64,000 nucleotides of DNA, from the IMG/VR virus record IMGVR_UViG_3300027796_000318, one strand, 5' to 3'. Below the pieces are notes generated by a model. It was not told where the DNA came from. It searched no databases and was given only the letters and a program-made list of their open reading frames with translations. How positions within the stretch are numbered: position 1 is the first letter of the stretch; each line of letters opens with the position of its first letter. The position numbers were made by a program, and so were the translations under genes. Shown piece after piece: positions 3,452 through 60,703 of the stretch. This DNA is from a virus.

Positions 3452-3527
3452 TGGAGCCGCCTCGGGGTCACGATCCCCGCGCCTCCGGTTTACAAGGCCG
3501 GCGCTCTACCTGATGAGCTAAGGCGGC
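3452..3527 (-). tRNA. tRNA-Thr(UGU) with atypical T-loop
   Basis: 76-nt cloverleaf, GCCGCCT/AGGCGGC acceptor, loop CT-TGT-AA, encoded CCA; T-loop ATCGTGA; C31-A39 mismatch. Confidence 0.85.
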
Positions 3528-3632
3528 GTGGTCGGTGTCTTGGGTCTGGTGGCGGGATCGCCCCGCCGGGTTGTCGATAGGCGTGGTCTCGACGCCTCGT
3601 TTTACATCATGCCTTGCGGCACCCAGATCGCG

Positions 3633-3702
3633 TGGGCGGACGGACTTGAACCGCCGACCTCCTTCCGGCCCGGAAGGTGCTCTCCCAACTGAGCTACGCC
3701 CA
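3633..3702 (-). pseudogene. Degenerate tRNA-like element (Val/Ala-like; nominal anticodon GGC)
   Basis: Intact D and T arms, but a 5-6 bp acceptor, self-pairing anticodon loop CGGGCCG (no U33, no purine 37) and no CCA. Confidence 0.7.
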
Positions 3703-3761
3703 ATCACCCCGTCTGGTTCTCGACAACCTGATTACCGCACGCCTTGCGTGGCACCAGATCT

Positions 3762-3836
3762 TGGTGGAGCCTGGGGGCTCGAACCCCCGACCTTCGCGAT
3801 GCAAGCGCGATGCTCTCCCAACTGAGCTAAGGCCCC
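3762..3836 (-). tRNA. tRNA-Ala(UGC)
   Basis: GGGGCCT/AGGCTCC with G3:U70, anticodon TGC, ACCA end; 75 nt, T-arm one base short. Confidence 0.88.
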
Positions 3837-3837
3837 A

Positions 3838-3915
3838 TGGTCGGTGTGGACGGATTCGAACCGCCGGCCCTCGCGTCCCAAACGCGATGCTCTGGCCTGG
3901 CTGAGCTACACACCG
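3838..3915 (-). tRNA. tRNA-Pro(UGG)
   Basis: CGGTGTG/CACACCG acceptor, TT-TGG-GA loop, TTCGAAT T-loop, ACCA end. Confidence 0.93.
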
Positions 3916-3980
3916 TGAATTGCGCCCGCCCGCTGGCCCTGCTGGGGCCAGGAATTCCAAAAAATGTACGCTGTTTTTCA

Positions 3981-4009
3981 TTGATATAGCGTACAATGTA
4001 CGCTAAATT
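3981..4009 (+). promoter_or_regulatory. Sigma70-like promoter with palindromic operator in the spacer
   Basis: TTGATA-17-TAAATT; perfect inverted repeat TAGCGTACA-A-TGTACGCTA at 3987-4005; extra half site near 3965. Confidence 0.75.
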
Positions 4010-4062
4010 TATTTTGTCAGCGGGGATGATCCCAATGACAAAACGAAAGGAGGTGACGCGGA

Positions 4063-4210: not shown

Positions 4211-4426
4211 ATGAAACCCGAACAGTTCAAGGAATGGCGATCGGCGATGGGCCTGTCCCAGATCAAGGCAGGGGAAGCTCTCGGACTTAGCAAGACCACG
4301 ATTGAGCTATACGAGGCGGGCCGGCGGCGGGATGATGGCCGTGCGGTCGAAATACCGCACTCTGTCGCCCTGGCTTGCGCCGCGCTGTACCACCGCATCA
4401 AGGCGTGGGGTGACGGCACCCCCTGA
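4211..4426 (+). CDS. XRE-family HTH protein
   Basis: FKEWRSAMGLSQIKAGEALGLSKTTIELYEAG. Confidence 0.88.
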   Translation: MKPEQFKEWRSAMGLSQIKAGEALGLSKTTIELYEAGRRRDDGRAVEIPHSVALACAALYHRIKAWGDGTP

Positions 4427-56005: not shown

Positions 56006-57559
56006 TCAATCCATCAGATCGAAGCAGCCGCCATCATCCCCGCTGGCCAGTTTTTCTCCGCCTGCGGGAGAGGGTGTCGAGTCGCTGCCATCCTCGGTTT
56101 CATCGCCCCACGCGAAGGTCCAGTGGGCTATTGTGGCGAAATGATCCCGGCACTCTCCAAGAGAGGGGAAATTCTTCCAGCCATTGACCCGCTTCCACGC
56201 TTTACTGCCGGCGACATCGACCAGCCACGCGCCGTTTTCGAAGTCTGGCACCCGAACCTTCTGGCCATCGGTGAAGCGTCGCGGCAGCATCCCGCGCAAC
56301 TGGACTGCCCAGGCTTCCAACGGCAGCTTGCGTTCGCGGCTGGTGCGGTCGCAGTAGCGGACGTAATCGTCATACAGAACCTTGGTCGGCACATCGCTTG
56401 GCCAATCGTCGCCATAGGGCAGCAGCCGCCCCTCGCGCAGCTTGCCCAGCCACCAGTGATTGATCAGCGGCATGGTGGCGACCTTCTGTTCCCACAGCGC
56501 CTCGGTCATCGGGATCTTGCGGAGATTGACCTGGGAGAGGTCGATCCGCTGGAGATAGGCCAGCAGGTGGCCCAACCCGCCAGCCTCCATTTCGGTGTCC
56601 ATCCGGGCGAAATAGTCGTGGTCCTGGATTCGCCCGTCACCGACATCAAGCACGCAGAAACGGCGCTCCTCGAAGGCGGCCGGGACGACCCAGGTGCTGT
56701 TGGAGGAGACATAGAGCCGGACCAGATTGCGGACCTGGACCCCGTCGATTCCTTTCTTTTCGAGCATGTGGACATCGCCGGTAACGAGATCCTTCAGCAC
56801 GCCCTCAGCCTCCTTATCGCCTGCCCAAAAGCCCTCATCAGCCTGCAACAACAGGCAATTGAACATGTGGCTGTTGAACTGGCCGGTCAGATGCTTGGAC
56901 TTGGCGATCTTGACATAATGGTCCCCCAGCAGCCGCCCGACGATTTCCCCCGGCTTGCTCTTGCCGGTGCCCTGGTGCCCGCGCAGCACCAGCGAGGTTC
57001 CCACCTTGCGCTCCGGGTGCTGGATCAGATCGGCGAACCATCCCCACACCCAGGCGGCGATATCACGGTTGCCCCGGGCGACATTGGTCAGGATGTGATC
57101 AACGAAGGTCGGGATGTGTTTCAGATGGTCGGCAGGGTCCGGGTAAGGCGGGGCCGCTTCGACCGAGAACCCACGCCACAGATTGAAAAACCGGTTGCCG
57201 CACACTTCGTCCGGGATTCCCTCCGGGGCGAACTCGACCCCGGAAAATTTGCGGCGTAAGGGGCTCTTCAGCCAGATATCGCCGATCCCGACCATCCTCC
57301 GAGTTTCTTCGTCGAAGACCCTTTCTTCGGACAGCCAGTCGCGGAAATCGCCGGTCCCCATAAACTCGACCACTCGCCGGCGCTGGAAATTATAGGTCTC
57401 GCGCAGGATGCGGGCCTTGCCGCCCAGCAGGACCAGGGCGAACTCCTCGGAGATTTCCTGCAACCGTCGCTCAACCGGGTCATTGGACCGCTGGACTCCG
57501 CCGGGCTTGCCCCGTGCCCGTTCTTTCTTGGCTTTGGCCAAATCAATCGGTGCGCTCAT
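56006..57559 (-). CDS. SF3/D5-like helicase (DUF5906-type)
   Basis: GHQGTGKS, LQADE, VSSN, ERRF. Confidence 0.88.
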   Translation of the reverse strand: MSAPIDLAKAKKERARGKPGGVQRSNDPVERRLQEISEEFALVLLGGKARILRETYNFQRRRVVEFMGTGDFRDWLSEERVFDEETRRMVGIGDIWLKSPLRRKFSGVEFAPEGIPDEVCGNRFFNLWRGFSVEAAPPYPDPADHLKHIPTFVDHILTNVARGNRDIAAWVWGWFADLIQHPERKVGTSLVLRGHQGTGKSKPGEIVGRLLGDHYVKIAKSKHLTGQFNSHMFNCLLLQADEGFWAGDKEAEGVLKDLVTGDVHMLEKKGIDGVQVRNLVRLYVSSNSTWVVPAAFEERRFCVLDVGDGRIQDHDYFARMDTEMEAGGLGHLLAYLQRIDLSQVNLRKIPMTEALWEQKVATMPLINHWWLGKLREGRLLPYGDDWPSDVPTKVLYDDYVRYCDRTSRERKLPLEAWAVQLRGMLPRRFTDGQKVRVPDFENGAWLVDVAGSKAWKRVNGWKNFPSLGECRDHFATIAHWTFAWGDETEDGSDSTPSPAGGEKLASGDDGGCFDLMD

Positions 57560-59505
57560 GCTGCCCCCTGAACGGCTTCGGCCGTCACTTGGATGCGGGG
57601 CCGCCGCAAGCGGGGGGGGCGAACGTGCTTATCCAGCCTCTCCCCCAGCTCGATTGATGCGGCCACCAAGGTGGAGAGAGGGCCAAGCGCCGCCCAGGCG
57701 CGGCCCCAATCGATCATAAACACGCTGTCGCGGTCTGCGGCGCGGTCGCGCAGCCAGTCGCGCGGACCATCGGCCACTGCCACCGGGCAAGTCAGGCCAT
57801 CGGCCTCGTGGGCCAGAGCCTCCGCTACCACATCCTCGCCCAGGATCGCGGCATGACCGGTTCGGCTGGCGATTTCGTCAGTGCGCGGATTCCAGGCGAC
57901 CAGATCCAGCAGCGCCGAGCCCGGTCCTTCCGCCCAAACCGGGATCAGCAGCACCGAGACCCCGGCTTCGGCCGGGTGCCACAGCGTCGGGCGCGGGGCG
58001 TCGGGCCAATCCTGTCCCGCTGCGGCCCGGCCTAACGCCAGAATCGCCCGGCTGAGGCCCAACCCGCCCAGGTGCTGCCACAGCGCCTCGGGATTGATGC
58101 CGTTATCGGCCAGCCAGGGCCGGACTTTGCCGGCTTCGGCTTCGGCGCGGGCGGTGGTCCATTCCTCTGCGATGGACCCGTGACCGGGCCGGGGGGCGAA
58201 TTTGCGCCGGCTGCGACCGACCAGCAGAGCCGGCGGGGCCGGGCGATAAGCGCGCCGCAGCCGCTCGCGCCAGTGATCCAGCACCGCCCGGCGCAGGCCG
58301 GGATGGGCGATGGTCGCGGCCAGACTCGCCAAGGTCCGCTCGAACGCGGCGAGGCGTTCCGGGGTATCGGGCGGAGCCCCACGCAAAGCGAGGCCCCACA
58401 GCCATTCGACGGCCGACCGCGATCCCGCCAGAGCCCGGCGCAGCGCCTCCGGCCCGTGCTGGCGCAGCAGGGAATCAGGATCGTGCCGGCGGGGCAGGCC
58501 GGTGGCAAAGCGCAGGCTCCGGTCTGGCGCCAGCAGCGGCAGAGCGCGGCGGGCGGTCCGTTCCATTGCCGCCTGCCCGGCCGCGTCGCCATCGAGGCAG
58601 ACCAGGATTTCCGGCGCTACCCGCCACGCCGCCTCCAGATGCCGCTCGGTCAAAGCGGTGCCGAGGGGGGCGACCGCCAGCGGCAGGCCGGCCCGATGCA
58701 GGGCAATCACATCCAGGTAGCCCTCAACCACGATCACCCGGCCGGCATCGGTGGCGGCGGCGCGGGCTTGGGCCAGCCCGTAGAGGGTCGCGCCCTTGTC
58801 CCACAAAGGCGTTTCCGGCGAGTTGAGGTATTTCGGCCCCTCGCCAGCGATCAGCCGACCGCCGAACGCCACCACCTGGCCGCGCCCGTCAGTGATCGGG
58901 AACAGCACCCGGCCCCGAAACAGGTCGCGCGCCGGGCCGTCCTGACTTGGCCGCACCAGTCCGGCCTCGATCAGCAGGGATTCGGGATAAACCGCGCTCC
59001 CCAGCCCGCGTTGCAGAGCCTGCCCAGCAGCTGGTGCCCAGCCCAGGCGCCACCGGGCGATGGTCTCATCATCCAGCCCGCGCCCGCGCAGATAGGCCAG
59101 CCCTTCGGCGCCGGCCGGACTCTGCAATTGGGCCTCATACCAGCGGCAGGCCGCTTCGAGCGCCTGATGCAGCGAGGCCCGGCGCTGATCCTGCGCCCGC
59201 TCTTCGGGGGTGGCGCGCGGGATCTCCAACCCGGCCTCGGCCGCCAGCGTTTCGACCGCCTCGATAAAGGAGAGCGATCCGGCGCGCATCTCGAACGCGA
59301 TCACGTCGCCATGGGCGCCGCAGCCGAAGCAATGGAAGAAGCCCTTGTCCTCATTGACGGTGAAGGACGGGCTCTTTTCGTTGTGGAACGGGCACAGCCC
59401 ACTGTGTTTCCGGCCCTTGCGGGTCAGCTTGACCCGCCGGCCGACCACCGACGCCAGGGGAACCCGGGCGCGCAGCTCGTCGAGAAAGGAGGCGGGGAAG
59501 CTCAT
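57556..59505 (-). CDS. DnaG-like primase (CHC2 zinc finger, Toprim)
   Basis: CPFHNEKSPSF...HCFGCG, KYLNSPET, VEGYLDV, LDGDAAG. Confidence 0.95.
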   Translation of the reverse strand: MSFPASFLDELRARVPLASVVGRRVKLTRKGRKHSGLCPFHNEKSPSFTVNEDKGFFHCFGCGAHGDVIAFEMRAGSLSFIEAVETLAAEAGLEIPRATPEERAQDQRRASLHQALEAACRWYEAQLQSPAGAEGLAYLRGRGLDDETIARWRLGWAPAAGQALQRGLGSAVYPESLLIEAGLVRPSQDGPARDLFRGRVLFPITDGRGQVVAFGGRLIAGEGPKYLNSPETPLWDKGATLYGLAQARAAATDAGRVIVVEGYLDVIALHRAGLPLAVAPLGTALTERHLEAAWRVAPEILVCLDGDAAGQAAMERTARRALPLLAPDRSLRFATGLPRRHDPDSLLRQHGPEALRRALAGSRSAVEWLWGLALRGAPPDTPERLAAFERTLASLAATIAHPGLRRAVLDHWRERLRRAYRPAPPALLVGRSRRKFAPRPGHGSIAEEWTTARAEAEAGKVRPWLADNGINPEALWQHLGGLGLSRAILALGRAAAGQDWPDAPRPTLWHPAEAGVSVLLIPVWAEGPGSALLDLVAWNPRTDEIASRTGHAAILGEDVVAEALAHEADGLTCPVAVADGPRDWLRDRAADRDSVFMIDWGRAWAALGPLSTLVAASIELGERLDKHVRPPRLRRPRIQVTAEAVQGAA

Positions 59506-60437: not shown

Positions 60438-60703
60438 GACGAAGCCCTCACACTGGCGTTACAGGCGCCAACAGCAAGGCTTGTCACGGCCGCGCTGGTG
60501 GCGGGAGGTTGACAACCCGGAAGACTGGTGTGAGACAGGCTTCGGGCGGAGTAATTCCCCTTGCGGGTATTATATTCCTCGCCCTCCCGCCATAGCGGGA
60601 CATGCTCCGGACGGTCTCCGAGCATGAAAAAGGCCACGATGCTCTCGGGGTGGCGGCCGCTCACACTGTCTTCGGAGGTTGTCACGCCTCCAAACCCGAG
60701 CAT
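60434..60703 (-). CDS. Ash/Icd-like leader ORF
   Basis: Spans the C4 RNA (EYNTRKGN...PGCQPPAT); start overlaps the predicted -10, so uncertain. Confidence 0.35.
   Translation of the reverse strand: MLGFGGVTTSEDSVSGRHPESIVAFFMLGDRPEHVPLWREGEEYNTRKGNYSARSLSHTSLPGCQPPATSAAVTSLAVGACNASVRASS
60499..60592 (-). ncRNA. C4-type antisense RNA
   Basis: Closing stem TGGCGGGAGG/CCTCCCGCCA, CGCAAG-capped hairpin, loops CTCACAC and TTGTCAA complementary to flanking GTGTGAG and GTGACAA sites. Confidence 0.8.

What the first reader, a model, noticed from the sequence alone, without database searches (positions are those of the whole stretch)
3633..3702. Chimeric pseudo-tRNA with a zipped anticodon loop: possible decoy
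Its D-arm (TAGCTCAGTTGGGAGAGCA) is identical to the neighbouring tRNA-Ala and its T-arm nearly matches the neighbouring tRNA-Pro. The acceptor is shortened on both strands yet still paired, and the anticodon arm is a perfect CCTTCCG-GGC-CGGAAGG hairpin. Kept pairing with lost decoding features fits a tRNA mimic (for example a nuclease or synthetase decoy) better than random decay. This is inference.
Basis: partly seen in the sequence, partly recalled or inferred. Interest (0 to 1): 0.6.

Follow-up and report, generated by a model that had tools for sequence, protein, structure and literature searches.

The report
Non-decoding alanine-tRNA relic in prophage
A prophage's small tRNA gene cluster holds a fourth, tRNA-shaped gene that descends from an alanine tRNA but can no longer be charged or read codons; the only related phage found lacks it, so it is most likely a leftover and not a proven decoy.

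Summary
On the minus strand at 3703-3630 lies a 73-74 nt cloverleaf. ARAGORN calls it tRNA-Ala(GGC); Rfam tRNA scores it 43.6 bits against 52-65 for its three neighbours. Its anticodon loop reads CGGGCCG, with no U33 and no purine at 37, and zips into a 7-bp stem with a GGC triloop. It also has G3-C70 instead of G3:U70, G73 instead of A73, a U1/C72 mismatch and no encoded CCA.

Its body is alanine-class, about 75% identical to alphaproteobacterial tRNA-Ala. Natural tRNA-Ala loops (AUGGCAU) are already self-complementary; here both A-U pairs have become C-G/G-C. Twenty of 21 stem pairs are kept, which random decay from three tested tRNA-Ala sequences rarely gives (P 3e-4 to 5e-6).

The one related array I could fetch (L215, an IMG/VR provirus) has Pro-Ala-Thr with Ala and Thr 4 nt apart. 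The element and its two repeated spacers (235 nt, 3762-3528) are therefore lineage-specific.

I found no other copy in any collection searched, and no tRNA-targeting partner among the ten accessory ORFs I scanned.

Best reading: an inactivated tRNA-Ala paralogue, carried in the late transcript. The decoy idea is untested, and for anticodon nucleases it is mechanistically awkward. Interest is low to moderate.

The parts
3630..3703 (-). tRNA-shaped gene X. Alanine-class body; anticodon loop CGGGCCG that closes to 7 bp plus a GGC triloop; G3-C70; G73; U1/C72 mismatch; no encoded CCA.
3704..3762 (-). Spacer S1, between the CCA of tRNA-Ala(UGC) and X. It is homologous to the first ~50 nt of S2.
   Evidence: local alignment score 29; 500 shuffles gave mean 13.6, sd 2.1, maximum 21. 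Also (repeat D4).
3528..3629 (-). Spacer S2, between X and tRNA-Thr. It is predicted to fold as a four-way junction with a GCAA tetraloop hairpin. It ends in ACACCGACCA, which is identical to the 3' end of tRNA-Pro.
   Evidence: MFE -34.8, z -1.9; repeat D2
3838..3915 (-). tRNA-Pro(UGG), canonical, with encoded CCA. First gene of the array.
   Evidence: 63.5 bits
3763..3837 (-). tRNA-Ala(UGC), canonical, with G3:U70, A73 and encoded CCA.
   Evidence: 65.5 bits
3452..3527 (-). tRNA-Thr(UGU) with the unusual T-loop AUCGUGA and an encoded CCA. Last gene of the array, just upstream of the HNH gene.
   Evidence: 52.4 bits; 3' half identical in L215
3109..3435 (-). HNH endonuclease gene. It is followed by the large terminase (2642-930) and portal (721-2) genes, so the array heads the packaging operon.

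Best explanation
X is an inactivated paralogue of an alanine tRNA. It sits in a 235-nt stretch specific to this phage lineage (spacer, X, spacer), between tRNA-Ala(UGC) and tRNA-Thr of a prophage tRNA array. Shown: it keeps the tRNA cloverleaf, including the G18/G19-type D-loop and a UUCAAGU T-loop. Shown: it has lost U33 and the purine at 37, because the loop is closed by two G-C pairs. Shown: it has also lost the AlaRS identity pair G3:U70, the A73 discriminator, the 1:72 pair and the encoded CCA. Inferred: it is co-transcribed with the array and the HNH-terminase genes. Inferred: it is probably excised like a tRNA by RNase P and 3' trimming, but is neither alanylated nor used in decoding, and has no function of its own in trans. 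Inferred: it arose when a tRNA-plus-trailer unit was duplicated or recombined in, which the two homologous spacers suggest. The paired loop changes need no selection. Once one side of a near-perfect DNA palindrome mutates, template-switch ('quasi-palindrome') correction can copy the change to the other side; this is my reasoning from published mutational mechanisms, not a test.
For: All four charging and decoding features fail while the three neighbours have them. The Rfam score is the lowest in the array. The related array in L215 has a repressor 67% identical and near-identical Pro, Ala and Thr genes. There, Ala and Thr are separated by only 'attc', so X and both spacers are missing. S1 and S2 are homologous, and S2 ends in a fragment of the Pro 3' end, so the region is a patchwork. 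No second copy turned up in IMG/VR, JGI metagenomes, phage or plasmid records, or about 1,580 genomes. Natural tRNA-Ala loops are already palindromic.
Against: Twenty of 21 stem pairs are intact. Against an Azospirillum tRNA-Ala, 7 of 8 stem changes keep or improve pairing. Random decay with the same number of changes reaches this in 3e-4 of trials or fewer, so X was under structural constraint for most of its history. At least five function-killing changes stand against a single stem-breaking one, which is more orderly than neutral decay predicts; my rough binomial estimate is p about 0.06. With one relative, an insertion here cannot be told from a deletion there.
Confidence: 0.55

Rival explanations
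1. X is a working tRNA-shaped non-coding RNA. It would be a sponge, decoy or regulator for a factor that recognises the tRNA body (elbow, acceptor) and not the anticodon. Its charging identity and anticodon loop would have been selectively disabled so that it cannot interfere with translation.
For: Structure is preserved while identity elements are lost. Both loop-closing pairs changed in a compensatory way, from A-U/U-A to C-G/G-C. Phage tRNAs are known counter-defence tools (PMC10264068, PMC11464382, PMC11555353).
Against: X is a single sequence and is absent from the only related array. No tRNA-targeting toxin or defence gene was found among the ten accessory ORFs scanned. My paper searches found no tRNA-like phage decoy. 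As bait for anticodon nucleases, a closed loop is the wrong shape.
Confidence: 0.2
2. X acts only in cis, as an RNA-processing signal. A tRNA-like fold would recruit RNase P and so cut the polycistronic transcript between the tRNAs and the packaging genes ('tRNA punctuation').
For: X sits inside a co-oriented array directly upstream of the HNH-terminase genes. The acceptor and T-arm helix that RNase P recognises is intact.
Against: tRNA-Thr lies between X and the HNH gene and already supplies such a site. L215 manages without X.
Confidence: 0.13
3. The relevant feature is the DNA palindrome CCTTCCGG(G/C)CCGGAAGG, acting as a protein-binding site such as an operator or packaging signal. On this reading its tRNA context is incidental.
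For: It is a 17-bp, nearly perfect palindrome.
Against: It occurs once in 64 kb, with no second site within 3 mismatches. It is absent from L215. It sits exactly where a tRNA anticodon arm should be.
Confidence: 0.05
4. X is still a decoding tRNA with an unusual loop.
For: ARAGORN assigns Ala(GGC), and X passes the Rfam threshold.
Against: It has no U33, no purine at 37, no G3:U70, no A73 and no CCA. The zipped form is favoured by 5.3 kcal/mol.
Confidence: 0.02

Closest known systems
Pseudo-tRNAs annotated in phage tRNA clusters (tRNAscan-SE 'pseudo' calls; examples among the papers)
   Same: A tRNA-like gene inside a phage tRNA array that fails canonical checks.
   Different: Those calls are usually low-scoring, degraded copies. 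X keeps all four stems, and its defects fall on the identity and anticodon-loop positions.
Phage tRNAs that escape anticodon nucleases through anticodon-loop changes (van den Berg et al. 2023, PMC10264068; T5 tRNA-Lys against PARIS, PMC11464382; retron evasion, PMC11555353)
   Same: Phage-encoded, with an altered anticodon loop, in a setting of conflict with the host.
   Different: As I understand these systems, the phage tRNA takes over decoding from a cleaved host tRNA, so it must still be charged and decode through a normal 7-nt loop. X can do neither.
tRNA genes at the head of the late operon of lambdoid phages (e.g. ileZ-argN-argO of 933W). From my own knowledge, not checked here.
   Same: A small tRNA array between the late regulatory region and the late genes.
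   Different: Those are ordinary decoding tRNAs.
Stable tRNA-cluster RNAs C and D of phage T4, and the Bacillus cereus 'tRNA-Other' pseudo-tRNA. From my own knowledge, not checked here.
   Same: tRNA-like RNAs that are not used in standard decoding.
   Different: There is no sequence relationship, and their expression was shown experimentally. Nothing is known about X.
YrlA / bacterial Y-RNA-like RNAs (Rfam RF02553)
   Same: They contain a tRNA-like domain.
   Different: The only match is 18 bits against a gathering score of 69. It lies over the Pro/Ala junction, not over X.

Membership tests
tRNA (Rfam RF00005, cloverleaf) | Score above the gathering threshold; four stems; D-loop GG; T-loop UUCRANY. 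| tested here: met
   43.6 bits against 29. 20 of 21 stem pairs. D-loop AGUUGGGA and T-loop UUCAAGU.
Decoding elongator tRNA | Open 7-nt anticodon loop with U33 and a purine at 37. | tested here: not met
   The loop is CGGGCCG, with G33 and C37. Zipped -9.0 against open -3.7 kcal/mol.
tRNA-Ala (AlaRS substrate) | G3:U70 wobble pair and A73 discriminator. | tested here: not met
   X has G3-C70 and G73. The neighbouring Ala(UGC), the L215 Ala and the host-type Ala genes all have G3:U70 and A73.
tRNA genes of this phage array | Encoded 3' CCA. | tested here: not met
   Pro, Ala and Thr here, and all four genes in L215, end in CCA. X is followed by CGA.
Nuclease-evading phage tRNA (PMC10264068) | Still chargeable and decoding, with substitutions confined to positions the nuclease recognises. 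| tested here: not met
   The charging identity and the open loop are both lost.
Conserved functional tRNA mimic or decoy | Conservation with covariation across relatives, plus an identifiable target. | tested here: inconclusive
   The only related array lacks X, and no other copy was found. No target turned up among ten ORFs.
YrlA (RF02553) / tmRNA | Model match. | tested here: not met
   YrlA scores 18 bits against 69, at another place. ARAGORN finds no tmRNA.

The most novel reading that the evidence does not exclude
A temperate phage keeps a tRNA-shaped RNA that has been deliberately made inert for translation: the anticodon loop is clamped shut by two G-C pairs and the AlaRS identity is erased. 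It would serve as a sponge or decoy for a host or rival-phage factor that recognises the tRNA body, making it a first tRNA-mimic anti-defence RNA.
Probability: 0.15. Interest if true: 0.7.

Novelty: new member of a known kind. Interest (0 to 1): 0.3.

Why it matters
If X is only a relic, it is a tidy example of how phage tRNA arrays grow by duplicating tRNA-plus-trailer units and then lose members. It also warns that ARAGORN's 'tRNA-Ala(GGC)' label should not be counted as a decoding tRNA. If X is expressed and stable, it would be a natural tRNA-body mimic stripped of translation functions. No such phage RNA turned up in my paper searches, and it would extend the known phage-tRNA counter-defence theme from replacement tRNAs to decoys.

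Tried and rejected
**Synteny through the large terminase.** The 25 genome loci and 80 IMG/VR loci are at most 67% identical. None has this array; a few have one unrelated tRNA.

**Synteny through the HNH protein.** The 80 IMG/VR loci are at most about 50% identical (one partial match of 44 residues at 68%) and carry no tRNAs.

**Two Azospirillum phage-plasmids.** Their terminase is 65-67% identical, and they have no tRNAs.

**Exact-pattern scans of IMG/VR.**
- The D-arm/T-arm frame, the anticodon arm, the 3' half and the 5' half of X each gave 0 hits.
- The tRNA-Thr 3' half found only L215's own contig.

**Metagenome scan.** I searched for the closed loop with free stem bases. All 10 hits are chance matches in coding DNA, and none is tRNA-like.

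**Megablast of 12 kb against phages and plasmids.** Nothing relevant was found.

**Blind sampling of about 1,580 genomes.** This covered a class-level sample, a 130-genome order that includes an Azospirillum-like genome, and three further small orders. Only ordinary host tRNAs matched. One call used too strict a threshold and was wasted.

**Tools and readings that gave nothing.**
The contigs of the closest terminase relatives (83% and 77%) and the window's second contig therefore could not be read.
- I rejected YrlA, an attP or integration-site reading (the integrase lies 20 kb away) and a repeated-operator reading.

Full report
**What is there.** The window begins with a prophage whose packaging genes run on the minus strand:
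- portal, 721-2
- large terminase, 2642-930
- HNH endonuclease, 3435-3109

Upstream lie an XRE repressor (4211-4426, +), a Ros/MucR gene and a replication gene.

Between the regulatory region and the HNH gene sits a co-oriented tRNA array:
- Pro(UGG), 3915-3838
- Ala(UGC), 3837-3763
- the element in question, X, 3703-3630
- Thr(UGU), 3527-3452

**Checking the observation.** Two programs recognise X as a tRNA. ARAGORN labels it Ala(GGC). Rfam tRNA gives 43.6 bits, which is above the threshold of 29 but the lowest score in the array.

- Read as a cloverleaf, X has the acceptor UUGGGCG/CGCCCAC: a U1/C72 mismatch over six Watson-Crick pairs.
- Its D-arm is identical to that of the neighbouring Ala, and its variable loop is AGGUC.
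- Its T-arm is GGCGG-UUCAAGU-CCGUC, and its discriminator is G73.
- No CCA follows, whereas all three neighbours encode one.
- The anticodon 'loop' is CGGGCCG. RNAfold closes it to a 7-bp stem with a GGC triloop.
- For the arm alone the zipped form is 5.3 kcal/mol better than the open one.

**What it descends from.** Against every tRNA I collected, X is closest to alanine tRNAs. It is closer to an Azospirillum tRNA-Ala(UGC) and a phage tRNA-Ala(GGC) than to its own neighbours Ala or Pro. Position by position it matches the Azospirillum gene at 55 of 73 bases.

- Of the eight stem differences, 2:71 and 30:40 are double, compensatory changes.
- 3:70 and 7:66 go from G-U to G-C, and 50:64 goes from U/U to G-U.
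- Only 1:72 is broken.

Simulated random decay from three tRNA-Ala sequences (the Azospirillum Ala(UGC), a phage Ala(GGC) and a host-type Ala(GGC)), each with its own number of changes, keeps 20 of 21 pairs in 3e-4 to 5e-6 of trials. X is thus not a randomly eroded copy of those genes. For most of its history it evolved under tRNA-like structural constraint.

A chimeric origin (Ala 5' part plus Pro T-arm) is not needed. The T-stem is one base from the Azospirillum tRNA-Ala stem, and the two acceptor strands, which match neither neighbour, pair with each other.

**The 'zipped' loop in context.** Ten of ten host-type tRNA-Ala(GGC) genes, and the phage one, have the loop AUGGCAU. tRNA-Ala(UGC) has UUUGCAA. 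In both, positions 32/38 and 33/37 are already complementary, and the nearest-neighbour model 'zips' them too, by only 1.6-2.1 kcal/mol.

What is special in X is that both A-U pairs have become C-G and G-C. That removes U33 and the purine at 37, which are near-universal in decoding tRNAs (established knowledge). Together with G3-C70 and G73, which replace the AlaRS identity set G3:U70 and A73 (established knowledge), X should be neither charged nor able to decode.

**Relatives.** The host lineage is poorly sampled. The window's DnaG-like protein is at most 65% identical to anything in the protein collection; its best named matches are Magnetospirillum, at about 54-65%. The terminase has one relative at 83% and then 77% or less.

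Loci found through the terminase and the HNH protein carry no such array. The repressor protein did lead to one true relative, L215, an IMG/VR provirus about 95% complete.

- L215 shares the conserved leader, near-identical Pro, Ala and Thr genes, and an identical 33-nt Thr 3' half.
- In L215 the CCA of Ala and the first base of Thr are separated by 'attc'.
- X and both flanking spacers, 235 nt in all (3762-3528), are absent, and nothing like them lies elsewhere in that 56-kb record.

All other searches for X or the array were negative. They covered IMG/VR, JGI metagenomes, phage and plasmid records, and about 1,580 genomes.

**Anatomy of the insert.** The spacer after Ala (S1) and the first ~50 nt of the spacer after X (S2) are homologous: score 29, against 13.6 +/- 2.1 in shuffles, with 0 of 500 shuffles reaching it. 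The layout is therefore tRNA-trailer, tRNA-trailer, as after a duplication of a tRNA-plus-trailer unit. S2 ends in ACACCGACCA, the exact 3' end of tRNA-Pro, directly before Thr. The interval is a recombination patchwork.

**Function.** My best-supported reading (0.55) is an inactivated tRNA-Ala paralogue carried along in the late transcript.

In favour:
- every feature needed for charging and decoding is lost;
- the closest array lacks it;
- the surroundings are a patchwork;
- the paired loop changes can arise without selection, by template-switch correction of a DNA quasi-palindrome (inference from published mutational mechanisms).

Against: the decay is orderly. At least five function-killing changes stand against one stem-breaking change, which keeps a functional tRNA-shaped RNA alive as a rival (0.2).

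The specific 'anticodon-nuclease decoy' version is weak. As I understand them, those enzymes cut open anticodon loops, and the phage tRNAs that counter them stand in for the cleaved host tRNA, so they must remain decodable (papers: PMC10264068, PMC11464382). A GC-clamped loop is the opposite. Bait for a factor that reads the tRNA body remains possible. No candidate partner was found among the ten accessory ORFs scanned, and my paper searches found no precedent.

A purely cis role as an RNase P cutting site (0.13) is largely redundant, because tRNA-Thr lies just downstream. A DNA-palindrome role (0.05) lacks a second site.

**Verdict.** X is a real, well-described feature: a tRNA-Ala-derived, non-decoding, tRNA-shaped gene found only in this phage among the data I could reach. 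It belongs with phage pseudo-tRNAs, though it is an unusually well-preserved one. The decoy idea is an untested possibility and not a finding.

Noticed in passing
window 3528-3629 (-) and 3704-3762 (-): The two spacers around X are homologous over ~50 nt. S2 is predicted to fold as a four-way junction, with a closing stem, a GCAA-tetraloop hairpin, a 6-bp hairpin with loop CGAGACC and a 6-bp hairpin with loop GCGAU. It could be a second, far more degraded tRNA-like relic or a structured trailer. This overlaps another first-stage finding (e1-5327296).
   Followed up: partly
window 3528-3538 (-): The 10 bases directly 5' of tRNA-Thr (ACACCGACCA) are identical to the 3' end plus CCA of tRNA-Pro. 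This looks like a relic of an earlier Pro-Thr junction or of a recombination event.
   Followed up: partly
L215 2375-2446 (-): The related provirus ends its array with a 72-nt tRNA-Met(CAU)-like gene. It has a 3-nt D-loop and a weak acceptor base. ARAGORN calls it, but Rfam does not at gathering score. It does have a canonical CUCAUAA loop and a CCA. Both phages therefore carry one non-standard array member, unrelated in sequence and at different positions.
   Followed up: partly
window 3452-3527 (-); L215 2452-2527 (-): tRNA-Thr(UGU) has the unusual T-loop AUCGUGA. Its 33-nt 3' half is identical in the two phages, although the repressors are only 67% identical. The oddity is therefore conserved.
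   Followed up: partly
window 3838-3840 (-): The encoded CCA of tRNA-Pro is separated from G1 of tRNA-Ala by a single base. The same tight junction is found in L215.
   Followed up: no
window 3579-3597 (+): On the plus strand, the S2 hairpin followed by CGTTTTACAT matches a terminator-like pattern. It could stop antisense transcription running into the array.
   Followed up: no
window 3916-4010; L215 2690-2800: The leader upstream of tRNA-Pro (CCCCAGCAGGGCCAGCGGGCGG) is conserved between the two phages. A perfect inverted repeat around 3984-4008 has an analogous, though not aligned, repeat in L215. This is probably the regulatory region of the array and late operon.
   Followed up: no
window 60492-60591 (-): Rfam match to sRNA-Xcc1 (59.1 bits, gathering score 53). 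It lies next to a DnaG-like primase gene and a P4-family primase-like gene, which suggests another mobile element.
   Followed up: no
window 57556-59505 (-): A full-length DnaG-type primase gene. Its best named relatives are Magnetospirillum and Paramagnetospirillum at only about 54-65% identity, so the host lineage (a Rhodospirillales-like alphaproteobacterium) appears poorly sampled.
   Followed up: partly
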